Shown here one piece after another: positions 7,589 to 13,475 of a stretch of DNA of 19,723 nt. The position numbers and the translations under genes were made by a program. Origin of the DNA: a virus (lineage: Duplodnaviria; Heunggongvirae; Uroviricota; Caudoviricetes); the IMG/VR virus record IMGVR_UViG_3300023184_000047, positions 98,057 through 117,779 of that record; one strand, given 5' to 3'. Position 1 is the first letter of the stretch. Each line of letters opens with the position of its first letter. The notes beneath the pieces were generated by a model that searched no databases, had not been told where the DNA came from, and worked only from the letters and a program-made list of their open reading frames with translations.

Positions 7589-8592
7589 TGGCTAGACTAT
7601 TAGAAGTAGAATACGAAAAAATATTCAAACCCGAAACAATGGCTTTGCTTAAAGGCAAGTCAGGTGAATCATTACGTGATACACTTGGTACTAAAAATCT
7701 CCAACAAGTAGTACAACGTTCAACTGAATTAGTTCCTGAAATTATAGAAGCCGAAGATGGGTATCGTGATCATTTAGAATTATTAGCGGCGGATATTGTA
7801 ACTAAAGCATATCCTATTATTGATTATGCTAATATTAAGATTGATGCTAAAATAGTAACAATGGGTGATCTTAACATTCCCCAAGAACCGGATGAAGTTG
7901 ATGTAGATGATACACCACCTGAAGCTGAACAAGCAAAACGTCGTATTATAAATGGTATCACACAAGGTGCTTCTATTAGAGGTTCATTTGCTTTTTTATT
8001 GTTTAGAGATTATTTAGATGCTTTTGATGAAGAATTAGTAGCAAAATATAATGAAATATTAAAATTATCGTTTGGTATTTACGATGACGAAAATGCAATC
8101 GCTATGTTATTAGCTATGATTGCACAACAACAAAATATGCCAGGGGGATCAAGTGAAATGGTTTATGATGAAGATGAAGAACAATTTATTATCAAAGCTA
8201 GAGCAATTTGCTTCCCAATGTTAGTACATGAAATAGTAAAAGGATTATATGAAATCGTTGGTACAGAAGGCTTTGGAGCCGATAAAGAAAAAAATCAAGC
8301 AATTGTCAATACTGTGGATAAGTTATCCAATGAACCTAACGATCTACGTTTTGGAAAATTTATCTATGATGCTATATCTGATTTATACAATAGTGGAAAT
8401 GTAAACGACCCTAGAGTTAGAGAATTATTGTTTACTGAAATATATAAACTCCCAGAAGAAGAATTTATCCCATTTATTGAAAATGCAATTAATGGAACTC
8501 TATCAAACGAACAAAAGAAATGGGCATCTGATACAATGCGTGATATTAAAGACGATCTTAAGAAAGACGATACTGGATTATCTGGATTGTAA
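7588..8592 (+). CDS. Hypothetical acidic protein
   Basis: 334-aa ORF, TAATG coupling; AKRRIINGITQGA and FPMLVHEIVKG motifs. Confidence 0.8.
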   Translation: MARLLEVEYEKIFKPETMALLKGKSGESLRDTLGTKNLQQVVQRSTELVPEIIEAEDGYRDHLELLAADIVTKAYPIIDYANIKIDAKIVTMGDLNIPQEPDEVDVDDTPPEAEQAKRRIINGITQGASIRGSFAFLLFRDYLDAFDEELVAKYNEILKLSFGIYDDENAIAMLLAMIAQQQNMPGGSSEMVYDEDEEQFIIKARAICFPMLVHEIVKGLYEIVGTEGFGADKEKNQAIVNTVDKLSNEPNDLRFGKFIYDAISDLYNSGNVNDPRVRELLFTEIYKLPEEEFIPFIENAINGTLSNEQKKWASDTMRDIKDDLKKDDTGLSGL

Positions 8593-8617: not shown

Positions 8618-9220
8618 ATGATCAATTTAGAAAATATACTTAACGAAAATAAATTTCCTGATTTAACTGGTGACGGTAAAGTAACTAGAGCCGATATATT
8701 AAAAGGTAGAGGAGTTAAAATGAGAGAAGATTTAGACGTAGGTCATCAAGACGATGAACCACATATGCTTAAAAGCGATGTTTATAGAATAGCTAAAATG
8801 GCTGCTATGTTATATAAGCAACTAGACAAATATGATAACATGGGAGAAGAAGTAGATTTTCCTCATTGGTGGCAAGCTAAAATAATTAAAGCATATGATT
8901 ATTTACAAGGTGCTTACGGATATTTAGATGGTGAAGAAAAAGTAGCAGCTATTGACTATATGAGCCAAATGAATGAAGTACAAGGTGAAGAATTAAATCA
9001 CGATATATCTCTTATAGGTAGTACATTAAAGAAAATCGAAACTATGATTGATTTTGGTAGAGATCAAGATGTTGATGTTGAAGAAGGATTGCAAACCGTA
9101 CTTAACATCTTAATTGATATTCAACATAAATTAGAAACAGATACTAAAGATGCTGCTAGTCTAGGTGGAGCTAGTAAGTTTTATCAAATGGAGAATATAT
9201 TAAAACAAATGGGTAAATAA
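8618..9220 (+). CDS. Hypothetical multi-module protein with MINLxxILxE leader and EF-hand/dockerin-like loop
   Basis: [10 protein letters not shown] then [12 protein letters not shown]; second module [12 protein letters not shown]...[10 protein letters not shown]. Confidence 0.8.
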
Positions 9221-9705
9221 TGAAATTTAAAACCAAACAAGAATTAGAAGATTTTATTCGTGGGCGTGTACGTCAACGTTTACAAAAAACTGACACTGCT
9301 GAATATCAAGGTGATTCTAATTCTCCTATGAATTTAATGTTAGCTCGTTTTCCTGAACTAAGACAAACATTAGAAAAACTATTAACAATACAATATAGGT
9401 TGTTTGTTAATGATATTGAATGGGTTGCACCTAAACCAACTACATTTAAAATTGTTTTACCTAATAAACAATATTTTAACTTAATATGGAATACGGAAGA
9501 CTTTATTGCTAAAGTAGCAGGTATGAAATATGATATGCTCACACTTAAAGAACGTGAAAGAGCAACTAAAGCAATATCTACACTACTTCAATATGGTCCG
9601 ATAAATGCAAACCTATCACCGGAGGAATTAGCTCAACAAGAACTAACTCCAGCTAAAGGGGAAGCAGCTGCTCCACCACCGTTATCTCCAGAAGAATTAA
9701 GCTAA
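9220..9705 (+). CDS. Hypothetical protein
   Basis: 161-aa ORF, TAATG coupling; WVAPKPTTFKI motif; LSPEEL repeated twice at the C-terminus. Confidence 0.8.
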   Translation: MKFKTKQELEDFIRGRVRQRLQKTDTAEYQGDSNSPMNLMLARFPELRQTLEKLLTIQYRLFVNDIEWVAPKPTTFKIVLPNKQYFNLIWNTEDFIAKVAGMKYDMLTLKERERATKAISTLLQYGPINANLSPEELAQQELTPAKGEAAAPPPLSPEELS

Positions 9706-9706
9706 A

Positions 9707-9738
9707 TTTGGCTCCCTAAGGGAGCCTTATTACATTTA
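9707..9738 (+). promoter_or_regulatory. Bacteroidota-type primary-sigma promoter (-33 TTTG / -7 TAnnTTTA)
   Basis: TTTG 9707-9710, 20-nt spacer, TACATTTA 9731-9738, upstream of ATG 9761. The Bacteroidota consensus is TTTG-N19-21-TAnnTTTG. Confidence 0.6.
9710..9730 (+). terminator. GC-rich hairpin, probable intrinsic terminator of the upstream operon
   Basis: GGCTCCC-TAA-GGGAGCC perfect 7-bp stem directly after stop 9705, followed by TTATT (imperfect U tract). Confidence 0.6.
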
Positions 9739-10540: not shown

Positions 10541-10549
10541 ATATTTATT
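10541..10549 (+). promoter_or_regulatory. ATATTTATW motif copy 4
   Basis: ATATTTATT immediately after stop 10540, 13 nt before ATG 10563. Confidence 0.65.
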
Positions 10550-10562
10550 GTAAAATATTTGT

Positions 10563-11006
10563 ATGGACAATTTTGACTTAAAGCGCTTTCTAGTTGAAAA
10601 CAAAATGACTAGAAACTCAAGACTTATAAACGAACAACCTGAACCAGAAGGAATACCAGCTGATGACCCATTAGCACAAATACCAGCTGTACCTGCTGAA
10701 ACACCATCAGAACCATCAGGTGAAATTGATAAAGAAACAGCTAAAGAATTAATATTCGATACTAAAGGTAAATTTTTTACAGTAACCTTTATTAAAAAAG
10801 ATGGTAGCGAACGTGTAATGAATGCTCGTTTAGGTGTTAAGAAATACTTAAAAGGAGGAACACTAGCATACGACCCAGCTGAATTTAATTACATTACAGT
10901 ATATGACATGGGTGCTAAAGGATATAGAATGGTTAACGCTAACACCATTAAAAACCTTAAAATCGGTAAAAACGAATACGTTATACCAACAGCAGTATCT
11001 GAATAA
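10563..11006 (+). CDS. SH3-barrel / WYL_2-like domain protein with N-terminal leader and Pro-rich linker
   Basis: FFTVTFIKKDGSERVMNARLG...VYDM...GYRMVN resembles phage WYL_2/SH3-fold proteins (F.F.KKDG..R.M); preceded by MDNFDLKRFLVE...LINE and a P/E/A-rich linker. Confidence 0.6.
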   Translation: MDNFDLKRFLVENKMTRNSRLINEQPEPEGIPADDPLAQIPAVPAETPSEPSGEIDKETAKELIFDTKGKFFTVTFIKKDGSERVMNARLGVKKYLKGGTLAYDPAEFNYITVYDMGAKGYRMVNANTIKNLKIGKNEYVIPTAVSE

Positions 11007-11012
11007 CATACA

Positions 11013-11053
11013 GACCGATTCATAGCCGGTTGCTCGAAAGAGATAAAATATGA
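11013..11053 (+). ncRNA. Putative structured RNA (H-type pseudoknot with inserted GAAA hairpin), family unknown
   Basis: P1 GACCG(11013-17)/CGGTT(11027-31); loop TCATA(11020-24) complementary to TATGA(11049-53); CTC-GAAA-GAG(11033-42); A-rich linker ATAAAA; locally GC-richer than its surroundings. Confidence 0.45.
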
Positions 11054-11060
11054 CAGCTGT

Positions 11061-11093
11061 GGCGTCAATCATTTGGATTGGCGCCCTTTTTTT
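11061..11093 (+). terminator. Intrinsic (Rho-independent) terminator
   Basis: GGCGTCAATC(11061-70)/GATTGGCGCC(11076-85) 10-bp stem with one G-U pair, 5-nt loop, then C and T7 (11087-93). Confidence 0.8.
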
Positions 11094-11103
11094 CGTATAT
11101 TTA
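11072..11103 (+). promoter_or_regulatory. Bacteroidota-type primary-sigma promoter
   Basis: TTTG 11072-75 (in the terminator loop), 20-nt spacer, TATATTTA 11096-11103, before ATG 11124. Confidence 0.6.
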
Positions 11104-11123
11104 ACAGTTCAAAAATTATAAAC

Positions 11124-12464
11124 ATGAGTAAAAACATTGTAATTGTAGGTGCCGGTGTAGCAGGTATTAATGCTGCAACTAAACTAGTAGATAACAACTA
11201 TAAAGGTAAAATCACTATTATTGATATGGGAAAAGATCCCCATAAACGATTACCAAGTGAAGTAATGACTGGAATGTTAGGTGCAGGAGGTTGGTCTGAT
11301 GGTAAATTAACTTATCACACTGCTATTGGAGGTCAATTATCTAAATACTGTGGTGAAGATAAGGCCATGGAGTTAATGGATCAAGTTATTACTAACTTTA
11401 AACGTTTTCACCCTAAACCTGAAGAAGTACAATGTTCAAATCCAGTTGCTGAACCTGATTTTATTAAACCACACTTTGGTTTACGTTTATTTCCTGTATG
11501 GCATGTTGGAACTGATTATCTATTAGAAATTGCTAAAAATTGGTATAAGTATTTAGTTGATAATGGAGTTGAATTTGAATGGGAAACTAAAGTGATAGAC
11601 ATTGACTTTAATAAGAAAATAGTATATACTTCAATCCCAACACCTTATATGTTAGGTGGAGATGAAACAACAGAAGGACATCACGGACTACTTTATGATG
11701 AACTTATTTTTGGTGTAGGTAAATCAGGAATTGACTTTGGTAAAAAATTAGCTGAAAAATATGACTTACCAACTGAACCTAAATCAGTACAAATTGGTGT
11801 TCGTTTTGAAGCACCACAACACCACTTCCAAAAACTAATCGATGTATCATATGACTTTAAATTATATAGAAAATTTGAAGATAAAGGAGTATCACTACGT
11901 TCATTCTGTACTAATAATAATGCAGCTTATGTTGCAGTAGAAGAAACATACGGAAACTACTCATACAATGGTCATGCTAAAAAAGATGAGAAGTATAGAA
12001 ACGATATGACTAACTTTGGTATTATAATGGAAGTAAACGGAATTGAAGATCCATTTACTTGGAGTAGAAATTTAGTTAAGATGTTACAAATTGATAATAA
12101 AGGATTATATTACTCTCCTTCACGTACCCCATCATTAACATCAGAAGGAGATCATGTAGAAGCAACTCAAATTAATGATTATGTGATGGATGAAGTAAGA
12201 GAAGCATTTGAAGGTTATTTTAAATACATTGATGATTTCATCAGTGGAATGAAAGAAATCTTCCCAACATTAAAAGACGATTGGGGTATGTACATACCTG
12301 AAGTAAAATATCTATCACCTGAGCCACTTGTTGATTATACCAACTTAGCCCTGACCAAGTATCCTAACGTACATTTTGTTGGTGATGCACTTTCCGCTAG
12401 AGGTATAACAGTAAGTGGTGCACAAGGGATTTATGTAGCAGAATATATTTTGAGATATCAATAA
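11124..12464 (+). CDS. FAD-dependent oxidoreductase (COG2509-like uncharacterised FAD dehydrogenase)
   Basis: Rossmann IVIVGAGVAG at the N-terminus, GAGGWSDGKL, RSFCTN, and C-terminal FVGDA...GITVSGAQG. Start placed at ATG 11124 because the track's TTG 11073 lies inside the terminator/promoter. Confidence 0.88.
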   Translation: MSKNIVIVGAGVAGINAATKLVDNNYKGKITIIDMGKDPHKRLPSEVMTGMLGAGGWSDGKLTYHTAIGGQLSKYCGEDKAMELMDQVITNFKRFHPKPEEVQCSNPVAEPDFIKPHFGLRLFPVWHVGTDYLLEIAKNWYKYLVDNGVEFEWETKVIDIDFNKKIVYTSIPTPYMLGGDETTEGHHGLLYDELIFGVGKSGIDFGKKLAEKYDLPTEPKSVQIGVRFEAPQHHFQKLIDVSYDFKLYRKFEDKGVSLRSFCTNNNAAYVAVEETYGNYSYNGHAKKDEKYRNDMTNFGIIMEVNGIEDPFTWSRNLVKMLQIDNKGLYYSPSRTPSLTSEGDHVEATQINDYVMDEVREAFEGYFKYIDDFISGMKEIFPTLKDDWGMYIPEVKYLSPEPLVDYTNLALTKYPNVHFVGDALSARGITVSGAQGIYVAEYILRYQ

Positions 12465-12483: not shown

Positions 12484-12744
12484 ATGGGAAGAAATAAAAT
12501 AATAAAACCACCTTTATTAGAAAATCCAAACAAATATACTCGTGTATTTGAAGATGATGAAAGTATAACTACATGGACTTACAATTTAGATTTTTCCCCT
12601 AACGGACCAATATCCGTAGATATAAAATATAAAACAGAAACAAACAAACCCAAAACAAATGGAAAAAAAACTAAAGACCCCAGACGGACAGACGTTGTAT
12701 CTAGCTCAAACGAAACGCCTAGGACACGACGTTCACGACAATAA
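12484..12744 (+). CDS. Small hypothetical protein
   Basis: 86-aa ORF after a predicted promoter; its last 86 nt overlap the next ORF. Confidence 0.6.
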   Translation: MGRNKIIKPPLLENPNKYTRVFEDDESITTWTYNLDFSPNGPISVDIKYKTETNKPKTNGKKTKDPRRTDVVSSSNETPRTRRSRQ

Positions 12745-12943
12745 CGACCCTAAAGCTGATGAAAAAATCTGGGTATTACATAATACAGAAGGCCCAGCAT
12801 TAATTAAAGCTGATGGTAAAAAAGAATACTATTTTTGGGGAATATTTCAAGGTACTACTCCTGAAGCTATTAGAGAATTAAAACGTAACCATACTGGGCT
12901 CCCACCAGCTAAAAACCCATTGTTTAAAAATAGCTTTAGATAA
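12659..12943 (+). CDS. Small hypothetical protein with LHxxxGPA...G.KEYY repeat unit
   Basis: LHNTEGPALIKADGKKEYYFWG resembles the LHR.DGPA repeat unit seen in large-virus hypotheticals. Confidence 0.7.
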   Translation: MEKKLKTPDGQTLYLAQTKRLGHDVHDNNDPKADEKIWVLHNTEGPALIKADGKKEYYFWGIFQGTTPEAIRELKRNHTGLPPAKNPLFKNSFR

Positions 12944-12944
12944 T

Positions 12945-13475
12945 ATGAAAATAGGATTTGCGGGAACAATGAGTGTAGGAAAAACTACACTAGTAAAAGC
13001 ATTAGCTGAATTGCCTGAATTTAAAGATTATTTTATTGCTACAGAACGCAGTAAATATTTACGTGATTTAGGTATCCCATTAAATACTGATTCTACTTTA
13101 CCAGGACAAATTATATTTTTAGCTGAACGCGCAAGCGAAATTCTGCGAAATAACGTATTAACTGATCGTACTATCTGGGATGTATGTGCCTTCACAGACA
13201 ATGCAGAATCTATTGATGTATATGCGAAATATCGCTATATAGAATTAGCAACATGTATGGGAGACCAATATGATATTGTATTTTATATATCACCTGAAGG
13301 AGTAGAAATTGAAGATAATGGTGTACGTGAGGTTTGCTCTGAATATAGAGACGTAATTGATGAAACTATTGTTGCTTTATTAAATAGATTCCCACCAAAA
13401 CGATTAATCAATATTAAGGGTACAACAGAAGAGCGTATAGCGCTTGTGTTAGAAGCATTTTATAAATATTTATAA
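12945..13475 (+). CDS. P-loop NTPase, nucleotide-kinase-like (AAA_28/NadR-kinase type)
   Basis: N-terminal IGFAGTMSVGKTTL Walker A, DRTIWD, YDIVFYISP. Confidence 0.85.
   Translation: MKIGFAGTMSVGKTTLVKALAELPEFKDYFIATERSKYLRDLGIPLNTDSTLPGQIIFLAERASEILRNNVLTDRTIWDVCAFTDNAESIDVYAKYRYIELATCMGDQYDIVFYISPEGVEIEDNGVREVCSEYRDVIDETIVALLNRFPPKRLINIKGTTEERIALVLEAFYKYL
13466..13474 (+). promoter_or_regulatory. ATATTTATW motif copy 5
   Basis: ATATTTATA at the end of the kinase gene, 22 nt before ATG 13497; part of the palindrome TATAAATATTTATA 13461-13474. Confidence 0.6.

What the first reader, a model, noticed from the sequence alone, without database searches (positions are those of the whole stretch)
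11007..11093. Compact pseudoknot RNA followed by an intrinsic terminator, with an alternative antiterminator pairing
Seen: in an otherwise AT-rich intergenic gap there is a P1 stem GACCG/CGGTT, a loop TCATA able to pair with TATGA 25 nt downstream, a CTC-GAAA-GAG tetraloop hairpin and an A-rich linker, then a strong terminator (11061-11093). GCCGGTTG (11025-32) can alternatively pair with CAGCTGTGGC (11054-63; 8 bp with a 2-nt bulge), which would break both P1 and the terminator base. Established: small H-type pseudoknots with A-rich L3 are the architecture of preQ1-I and SAM-II aptamers and of type III antitoxin RNAs; the sequence does not clearly match any of these. Inference: either an unknown riboswitch/attenuator controlling read-through into the FAD oxidoreductase, or a stable 3'-UTR-derived small RNA.
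Basis: partly seen in the sequence, partly recalled or inferred. Interest (0 to 1): 0.72.

Follow-up and report, generated by a model that had tools for sequence, protein, structure and literature searches.

The report
Phage kissing-loop transcription switch, candidate riboswitch
Hundreds of large aquatic phages carry a small folded RNA, absent from the Rfam RNA-family library, whose two hairpin loops pair with each other and so block a transcription stop signal in front of an enzyme gene of unknown function; it looks like a new riboswitch, but its trigger is unknown.

Summary
11004-11067 is a 64-nt motif: conserved single-stranded leader, hairpin P1 (11013-31), A-rich linker, marginal hairpin P2 (11051-67). 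The two 9-nt loops form a 6-bp kissing helix (11020-25 with 11057-62), intact in 342 of 343 distinct copies, with two-sided changes at three pairs, also in copies found without constraining loop 2. The terminator (11061-93) takes P2's 3' strand and loop 2 and co-varies with them, so kiss and terminator exclude each other: ZTP/guanidine-IV-like ON-switch architecture. 325 of 342 copies precede a COG2509/VP0956-like flavoenzyme gene (also 39%-identical homologues), often via a pyrimidine-dimer glycosylase gene; usually one copy per genome; no Rfam match; seen only on phage DNA. Caveat: the flavoenzyme gene has its own conserved early-type promoter overlapping the terminator, so the switch would only add read-through from late transcripts. 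No expression or binding data. Odds: structure 0.95, switch 0.75, small-molecule riboswitch 0.45. No earlier scan note on this RNA was found.

The parts
10541..10549 (+). Late-promoter-like motif (ATATTTATW), presumed source of the transcript that runs through the RNA motif
   Evidence: 26 copies on the coding strand of the genome, 18 within 45 nt of an ATG ORF; 5 on the other strand, none before an ORF; promoter function inferred; also noted as e1-5418897
10563..11006 (+). Upstream gene (147 aa, leader-peptide N-terminus plus WYL_2 Sm-like domain); not a fixed partner of the motif
   Evidence: Pfam PF10902 E 6e-7; upstream genes fall in 78 clusters among 193 copies; WYL_2 lies near the locus both with and without the motif
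11004..11012 (+). Conserved single-stranded 5' leader; A11012 faces G11032 (A.G pair at the base of P1)
   Evidence: U at -3 in 319/342, A at -6 in 299/342; A and G flanking P1 in 227/228 and 226/228 of the set not selected for them
11013..11031 (+). Hairpin P1 (5 bp here, 5-6 in family) with 9-nt loop L1 (11018-26)
   Evidence: 5/5 pairs with two-sided changes, 100% of cells paired
11020..11025 (+). Kissing strand of L1
   Evidence: pairs with 11057-62
11033..11050 (+). A/U-rich linker (14-28 nt in family) with an optional small hairpin 11033-42
11051..11067 (+). Hairpin P2 (4 bp here, 2-4 in family, about 0 kcal/mol alone) with 9-nt loop L2 (11055-63)
   Evidence: 3/3 pairs with two-sided changes; energy
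11057..11062 (+). Kissing strand of L2
   Evidence: 6/6 pairing in 342 of 343 copies; 99.7% of cells in protein-selected loci aligned without the kiss
11061..11093 (+). Intrinsic terminator (stem 11061-85, U7 11087-93) whose 5' arm uses the end of L2 and the 3' strand of P2; exclusive with the kissing fold
   Evidence: overlap in 317/342 copies, 304 with at least 5 U in 8; three-way covariation
11072..11103 (+). Early-type, Bacteroidota-sigma-A-like promoter (TTTG 11072-75, 20-nt spacer, TATATTTA 11096-103) giving the flavoenzyme gene its own start downstream of the terminator
   Evidence: about 13 intergenic copies before genes in this genome; 261/342 homologues against 3.4 in shuffles, fixed spacing in 174/192; function inferred from the known consensus
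11124..12464 (+). FAD-dependent oxidoreductase, COG2509/VP0956-like, substrate unknown; first gene of the controlled operon
   Evidence: Rossmann motif; JGI name 'uncharacterized FAD-dependent dehydrogenase'; best fold match PDB 3NLC, E 3e-15
12484..13475 (+). Rest of the operon: 86-aa and 94-aa unknowns and an AAA_28 (NadR-like kinase/ATPase) gene
   Evidence: PF13521; AAA_28 within 3.2 kb in 151/168 loci

Best explanation
A cis-acting transcription attenuator, most likely a small-molecule ON riboswitch of a class not yet described. RNA polymerase coming from the late promoter finishes whichever gene is last in the late block and transcribes leader, P1, linker and P2. P2 is too weak to stand alone; it holds only if loop L2 docks on loop L1 (6-7 bp, two wobble pairs). 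If the kissing complex is stabilised in time (by a ligand held by the near-invariant unpaired nucleotides: leader U and A, the A.G pair, the loop A's and C's), the terminator's 5' arm is not free and polymerase reads through into the flavoenzyme operon, adding late expression to that from the gene's own early promoter. Otherwise the much stronger terminator strips P2 and L2 and transcription stops at 11087-93. SHOWN: the fold, its strand, its exclusion with the terminator, its place and gene association. INFERRED: transcription through it, switching, a ligand. GUESS for the ligand: the flavoenzyme's substrate or a related nucleobase/nucleotide (modified or damaged purine, 7-deazaguanine intermediate), next a flavin or nicotinamide compound.
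For: Kissing helix: 99.7% paired, 3 pairs with two-sided and 2 with one-sided changes in loci chosen by protein only and aligned without the kiss; slid controls 23-54%. Prospective test: a metagenome scan on P1/L1 only returned 94 copies with a loop 2; all but one carried the compensating change once one mis-registered call was corrected. On a flavoenzyme tree the C-G/U-A and A-U/U-A swaps need at least 7 and 8 changes, the same number on both sides. Terminator tracks the motif: P2-5'/P2-3'/terminator triplets G-C-G 104, C-G-C 72, C-G-U 16, U-A-U 8; all 31 copies with A at L2 position 7 have U opposite in the terminator. Energies: alternative hairpin mean -19.7, P2 alone -0.2, kiss -5 to -9 kcal/mol, so the kiss needs help or timing. 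Gene association: 325/342, 16 of the rest too short to tell; kept before 39%-identical enzymes; single copy in nearly all genomes. Precedent for the logic: guanidine-IV (PMC11611296) and ZTP (PMC10907184, PMC7484762). Context for the ligand guess: QueC, QueE-like and FolE genes in this genome, QueC in 6/6 complete relatives, a homologue directly after a queE-folE-queC cluster, homologues in deoxyinosine-containing Fletcherviruses (PMC13091555), glycosylase genes first in 37/342.
Against: The flavoenzyme gene has its own promoter beyond the terminator, so the motif is not a normal 5' leader. Gene association cannot be separated from synteny within one phage group; one full copy lacks the gene (L497). 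About one locus in five lacks the motif and has a plain terminator/promoter, so it is dispensable. No bacterial copy found, unusual for a metabolite riboswitch. Kissing loops often form without any ligand (PMC10907184). QueC is also in a genome without the motif (G540). No transcript or binding data.
Confidence: 0.45

Rival explanations
1. Same switch, protein trigger: a phage or host RNA-binding protein recognises the kissing complex and its leader and holds the terminator open (as BglG/SacY-type antiterminators hold RAT sites), for example to couple late read-through to the stage of infection; the flavoenzyme itself could be the binder.
For: All structural evidence fits equally; phage-only range fits a phage protein; the conserved single-stranded leader could be a protein contact.
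Against: No co-travelling RNA-binding gene found: the Sm-like WYL_2 neighbour occurs with and without the motif and upstream genes vary; one site per genome is little for a dedicated antiterminator.
Confidence: 0.2
2. Trigger-free kinetic attenuator: kiss and terminator race during transcription and set a fixed, or speed-, Mg- or temperature-dependent, fraction of late read-through.
For: Kissing helices can form unaided (PMC10907184); the kiss is complete before the terminator's 3' arm is made (layout); loss of the motif leaves a plain terminator.
Against: A fixed leak needs no such conserved non-paired nucleotides (leader U 319/342, flanking A.G, the invariant central A-U pair 343/343); a weaker terminator would do.
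Confidence: 0.1
3. Not a switch for downstream genes but a 3'-end element or small RNA of late transcripts (stability, processing site, decoy, or loop-loop oligomer such as packaging RNAs form), the terminator overlap being genome compaction.
For: Sits 5-15 nt after the stop codon of any late gene; the downstream gene has its own promoter; P1-only halves occur between late genes; intermolecular kissing is known in phage RNAs such as manA (bioRxiv 10.64898/2026.07.01.735769).
Against: In a terminated RNA the terminator (about -20 kcal/mol) destroys P2 and the kiss, and this overlap is kept by compensatory change in 317/342 copies; no tie to any upstream gene.
Confidence: 0.15
4. A small self-cleaving ribozyme of a new class that trims the late transcript.
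For: Small size, conserved unpaired leader next to a tertiary fold, position abutting stop codons; L1 faintly recalls the twister L4 loop (from memory).
Against: No Rfam family, ribozymes included, scores on it even at E 10; the twister P2-like pairing of the leader exists only in this copy; exclusion with a terminator is not a ribozyme trait.
Confidence: 0.05

Closest known systems
ZTP/ZMP (pfl) riboswitch
   Same: ON switch in which a weak 3' hairpin docks by a long-range loop pairing, and the terminator invades that hairpin by strand displacement; kinetic control (PMC10907184, PMC7484762). A-rich linker and short last hairpin as here (own knowledge).
   Different: ZTP's pseudoknot joins loop L3 to an internal junction of a P1-P2 domain; here both partners are terminal 9-nt loops. 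No sequence match; not before purine/folate genes; phage-only; downstream gene has its own promoter.
Guanidine-IV riboswitch
   Same: Two hairpins, a kissing loop that prevents completion of an intrinsic terminator, read-through when formed (PMC11611296).
   Different: There the kiss uses the terminator hairpin's own loop (PMC10907184); here it uses a separate hairpin P2 that the terminator dismantles. Genes are mepA exporters there, a flavoenzyme and glycosylases here.
preQ1-I, SAM-II and type III antitoxin H-type pseudoknots
   Same: Small size, A-rich linker, a hairpin loop in a long-range pairing; this phage does encode 7-deazaguanine genes.
   Different: The loop pairs with a second hairpin loop, not a free 3' tail; no Rfam match; single copy, no toxin gene.
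HIV-1 DIS-type kissing complex (own knowledge)
   Same: 9-nt loops laid out as 2 unpaired + 6 paired + 1 unpaired nucleotides.
   Different: Two different loops in one bacterial-virus transcript, coupled to a terminator; no self-complementary palindrome.
Candidate structured RNAs from IMG/VR (Fremin et al. 2023, PMC10690425)
   Same: Same database; 8495 automated candidates, 1241 with terminators; this motif may be among them.
   Different: The main text names no riboswitch, kissing loop or oxidoreductase link; supplements not held, so overlap is untested.

Membership tests
Any Rfam 15 family | Score at or above the family's gathering threshold | tested here: not met
   0 hits in the window; at E 10 only an unrelated hit outside the motif; none on six divergent copies
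Riboswitch (general) | Conserved structure with covariation and conserved unpaired nucleotides | tested here: met
Riboswitch (general) | Expression platform exclusive with the aptamer fold | tested here: met
   terminator overlaps P2/L2 in 317/342 with three-way covariation; prediction only
Riboswitch (general) | Lies in the 5' leader of the regulated gene, between its promoter and start codon | tested here: inconclusive
   upstream of the flavoenzyme gene in 325/342, but the gene's nearest promoter lies after the terminator; it is a leader only for read-through from late promoters
Riboswitch (general) | Direct, selective binding of a small molecule that changes expression | not testable with these tools
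   needs probing and termination assays
ZTP riboswitch | P1-P2 domain whose junction pairs with L3; Rfam model match | tested here: not met
   simple hairpin P1, loop-loop pairing; no Rfam hit
Guanidine-IV riboswitch | Kiss formed with the terminator's own loop; upstream of mepA-type exporters | tested here: not met
   kiss uses L2, which becomes the terminator's 5' arm; downstream genes are a flavoenzyme or glycosylases
preQ1-I / SAM-II H-type pseudoknot | Loop pairs with a 3' single-stranded tail after an A-rich linker | tested here: not met
   the proposed tail pairing is not conserved; the partner is a hairpin loop
Type III toxin-antitoxin antitoxin | Tandem repeats of the pseudoknot before a terminator and a toxin RNase gene | tested here: not met
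   single copy; downstream gene is a flavoenzyme
Stop-codon read-through or frameshift stimulator | Fixed spacing after a stop and an open frame into the next gene | tested here: not met
   frames 50/48/45, open in frame in only 3 of 50
Known small ribozymes (twister, pistol, hammerhead, hatchet, HDV-like) | Catalytic core consensus / Rfam match | tested here: not met
   self-cleavage itself not testable here

The most novel reading that the evidence does not exclude
A riboswitch class that exists only in phages and senses a metabolite of the phage's own nucleotide-modification or damage-repair chemistry (for example a 7-deazaguanine intermediate or another modified purine), letting late transcripts switch an orphan flavoenzyme and glycosylase operon back on; finding the ligand would also reveal the substrate of the COG2509 enzyme family.
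Probability: 0.25. Interest if true: 0.9.

Novelty: new variant of a known kind. Interest (0 to 1): 0.76.

Why it matters
New riboswitch classes are rare finds, and phage-specific ones would show that lytic phages read host or own metabolite levels with RNA. The motif is only about 60 nt, has hundreds of natural variants with a well-supported fold and a built-in readout (termination), so it can be tested at once. A ligand would give the first functional handle on a widespread, uncharacterised flavoenzyme family (COG2509/PF21688-like) that thousands of aquatic phages and the deoxyinosine Campylobacter phages carry. Even under the protein or kinetic rivals it is a new way of wiring a late transcript into an early operon.

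Tried and rejected
Rfam at gathering and E-value thresholds: nothing. Read-through/frameshift fusion of the upstream gene to the flavoenzyme, suggested by an open in-frame stretch in this window: rejected. Pairing of the 5' leader with L2 or with the linker end: the leader does not follow L2 changes. WYL_2 protein as cognate partner: no coupling. tRNA genes next to the motif: none. Bacterial copies: exact-pattern scan of GTDB gave 14 hits, three real ones all in phage-like context inside MAG contigs, the rest without P1/P2; model search of 151 genomes of the class of a Flavobacteriaceae MAG and 25 other genomes found none (samples only, no positive control in those runs); no close flavoenzyme homologue in 401 genomes of that phylum. 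Literature: loop sequences, COG2509 and phage-riboswitch searches gave no description of this motif; the Campylobacter deoxyinosine paper of 2019 and the ZTP strand-displacement paper were not held. Bias note: fixed loop letters and filtered on stems, so invariance there is partly by construction; searches are the unbiased checks. Tree counts can be inflated by recombination between motif and gene.

Full report
SETTING. The window is the end of a 117.8-kb virus record (71% complete) of a T4-like phage with terminase and portal genes on the + strand. Complete relatives are 149-174 kb. The host is probably a member of Bacteroidota, inferred only from the promoter consensus (own knowledge: -33 TTTG, -7 TAnnTTTG, 19-21 nt apart). 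The finding lies in the 117-nt gap between a WYL_2-domain gene (10563-11006) and an FAD-dependent oxidoreductase gene (11124-12464).

OBSERVATION CHECK. The terminator is strong (z -3.2). The upstream part is not unusually stable as a single sequence (z about -1) and matches no Rfam family. The decision therefore rested on homologues.

HOMOLOGUES. Loci fetched by the flavoenzyme protein alone showed the same motif just upstream of the gene: 60 of 80 loci score with a covariance model, and 6 of the other 20 have no upstream DNA. A second protein-selected set, reaching enzymes of about 40% identity, gave 62 of 76. In all, 342-343 distinct copies were analysed.

THE FOLD. P1 (11013-17 with 11027-31) is 5-6 bp with two-sided changes at all five pairs. 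It is flanked by an A and a G that are almost invariant (227/228 and 226/228) and preceded by a conserved unpaired leader (U at -3 in 319/342). After a 14-28-nt A/U-rich linker comes a second hairpin P2 (11051-54 with 11064-67), 2-4 bp, with two-sided changes at all three core pairs. Both loops have 9 nt. Positions 3-8 of L1 pair with positions 8-3 of L2: pair types U-G/U-A/C-G, C-G/U-A, A-U (invariant), U-G/C-G, A-U/U-A/G-U and G-C/G-U/U-A/A-U; all six pairs hold in 342 of 343 copies. Because early scans fixed the loop letters, two unbiased tests were run. In protein-selected loci aligned without the kiss, 99.7% of cells pair, three pairs show two-sided changes, and slid controls give 23-54%. 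A scan that specified only P1 and a degenerate L1 returned 94 metagenome copies with a second loop, and the second loop carried the compensating letters in all but one after correcting one mis-registered call. On a tree of 140 flavoenzymes the two clean swaps need at least 7 and 8 changes, equal on both sides (recombination may inflate this). The G-U pairs fix the + strand and RNA as the working molecule.

THE SWITCH. The terminator's 5' arm starts inside L2 and runs through P2's 3' strand. This overlap is predicted in 317 of 342 copies, 304 of them with a U-rich tail. When P2 changes, the terminator's 3' arm follows (G-C-G 104, C-G-C 72, C-G-U 16, U-A-U 8), and all 31 copies with A at L2 position 7 have U opposite it in the terminator. 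Both exclusive folds are thus under selection. P2 alone is worth about 0 kcal/mol, the kiss -5 to -9, the alternative hairpin about -20. The kissing fold can win only with help or by timing, as in the ZTP riboswitch, where a weak last hairpin and long-range pseudoknot are displaced by the terminator (PMC10907184, PMC7484762), and in guanidine-IV, where a kissing loop blocks the terminator (PMC11611296). Kiss formed means read-through: an ON switch.

WHAT IS CONTROLLED. The flavoenzyme gene follows within 2.7 kb in 325 of 342 copies (first gene in 269; a pyrimidine-dimer glycosylase of either of two types is first in 37); 16 of the rest are too short and one (L497) lacks it. Upstream genes vary (78 clusters). 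Genomes nearly always hold one copy; L491 holds two, one before a glycosylase and one before the flavoenzyme. The enzyme is COG2509-like, closest in fold to VP0956 (PDB 3NLC), substrate unknown, and travels with a 92-aa gene and an AAA_28 kinase-like gene. Hints on chemistry are indirect: this genome has QueC, a QueE-like radical SAM gene and FolE, QueC is in 6 of 6 complete relatives with or without the motif, a 41% homologue directly follows a queE-folE-queC cluster, and 25% homologues occur in Fletcherviruses, which replace dG with dI (PMC13091555).

THE COMPLICATION. A promoter-like pair of boxes overlaps the terminator (11072-76 and 11096-103). It recurs about 13 times before genes in this genome, has a fixed spacing in 174 of 192 homologues and is found in 261 of 342 copies against 3.4 in shuffles. 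The flavoenzyme gene can therefore be transcribed early without the switch. The RNA motif must be made from upstream late promoters (10541-49), and the switch would govern a second, late wave. Loci without the motif keep a plain terminator/promoter unit like the one at window 9707, so the switch is dispensable in about a fifth of these phages.

ALTERNATIVES. A stop-codon read-through signal was suggested by the open frame in this window but fails in homologues. A protein-held antiterminator, a trigger-free kinetic attenuator, a 3'-end RNA and a ribozyme remain, at about 0.2, 0.1, 0.15 and 0.05. No bacterial copy was found. Expression could not be checked.

VERDICT. A real, strongly supported RNA motif that is in no Rfam family and that I could not find described; it may be an unnamed entry among the automated candidates of PMC10690425. 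It works like a ZTP/guanidine-IV-type ON attenuator but is a member of neither. Structure 0.95, switch of some kind 0.75, small-molecule riboswitch 0.45. Interest 0.76; new variant of a known kind.

Noticed in passing
L197:4594 / L451:629-682, L231, L407:559-611 (G556:21358): Half copies with leader and P1 only, placed between late cargo genes right after a stop codon; probably relics of recombination in the variable late block, possibly a function of P1 alone.
   Followed up: partly
L491:947-1010 and 2384-2443: Two full copies of different loop types, one before a pyrimidine-dimer glycosylase plus endonuclease gene, one before the flavoenzyme gene.
   Followed up: partly
L497:10819: Full motif followed by a decayed glycosylase start and then genes that look like prohead core and major capsid genes; the only long locus without the flavoenzyme gene.
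   Followed up: partly
G000:C1:489-9427 (outside the window): 7-deazaguanine pathway genes: QueC (1847-2764), QueE-like radical SAM (7772-8545), FolE (8732-9427), and an unassigned 262-aa gene at 489-1277; no TGT hit in this 71%-complete record.
   Followed up: partly
L402:1-6188: A 41%-identical flavoenzyme gene sits directly after radical SAM, FolE, SAM decarboxylase, DUF5591 and QueC genes and before AAA_28 and DNA polymerase A; no RNA motif there.
   Followed up: no
L406:4911-6179 (Campylobacter phage NCTC12673): Fletcherviruses, whose DNA has dI in place of dG, carry a 25%-identical flavoenzyme near dUTPase; a candidate for the unknown dITP pathway (speculative).
   Followed up: no
window 9707-9737: Fused terminator hairpin and early-type promoter before the DnaQ-like exonuclease gene; the same unit stands before the flavoenzyme gene in motif-less loci L002, L008 and L044.
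   Followed up: partly
window 11007-11123: The gap is open and in frame between the upstream gene and the flavoenzyme gene; chance, not conserved.
   Followed up: yes
window 10563-10600 and many upstream genes in loci: Unrelated late genes share short N-terminal leader peptides, as in earlier scan notes on capsid-targeting labels.
   Followed up: no
L099, L199, L446, L467, L628 just after the promoter: A short conserved G-rich stretch resembling a tRNA 5' end follows the promoter in some loci with inserted endonuclease genes; ARAGORN finds no tRNA in L099, L199, L446 or L467.
   Followed up: partly
L385, L387, L392: Phage fragments with the motif are binned into bacterial MAGs in GTDB.
   Followed up: partly
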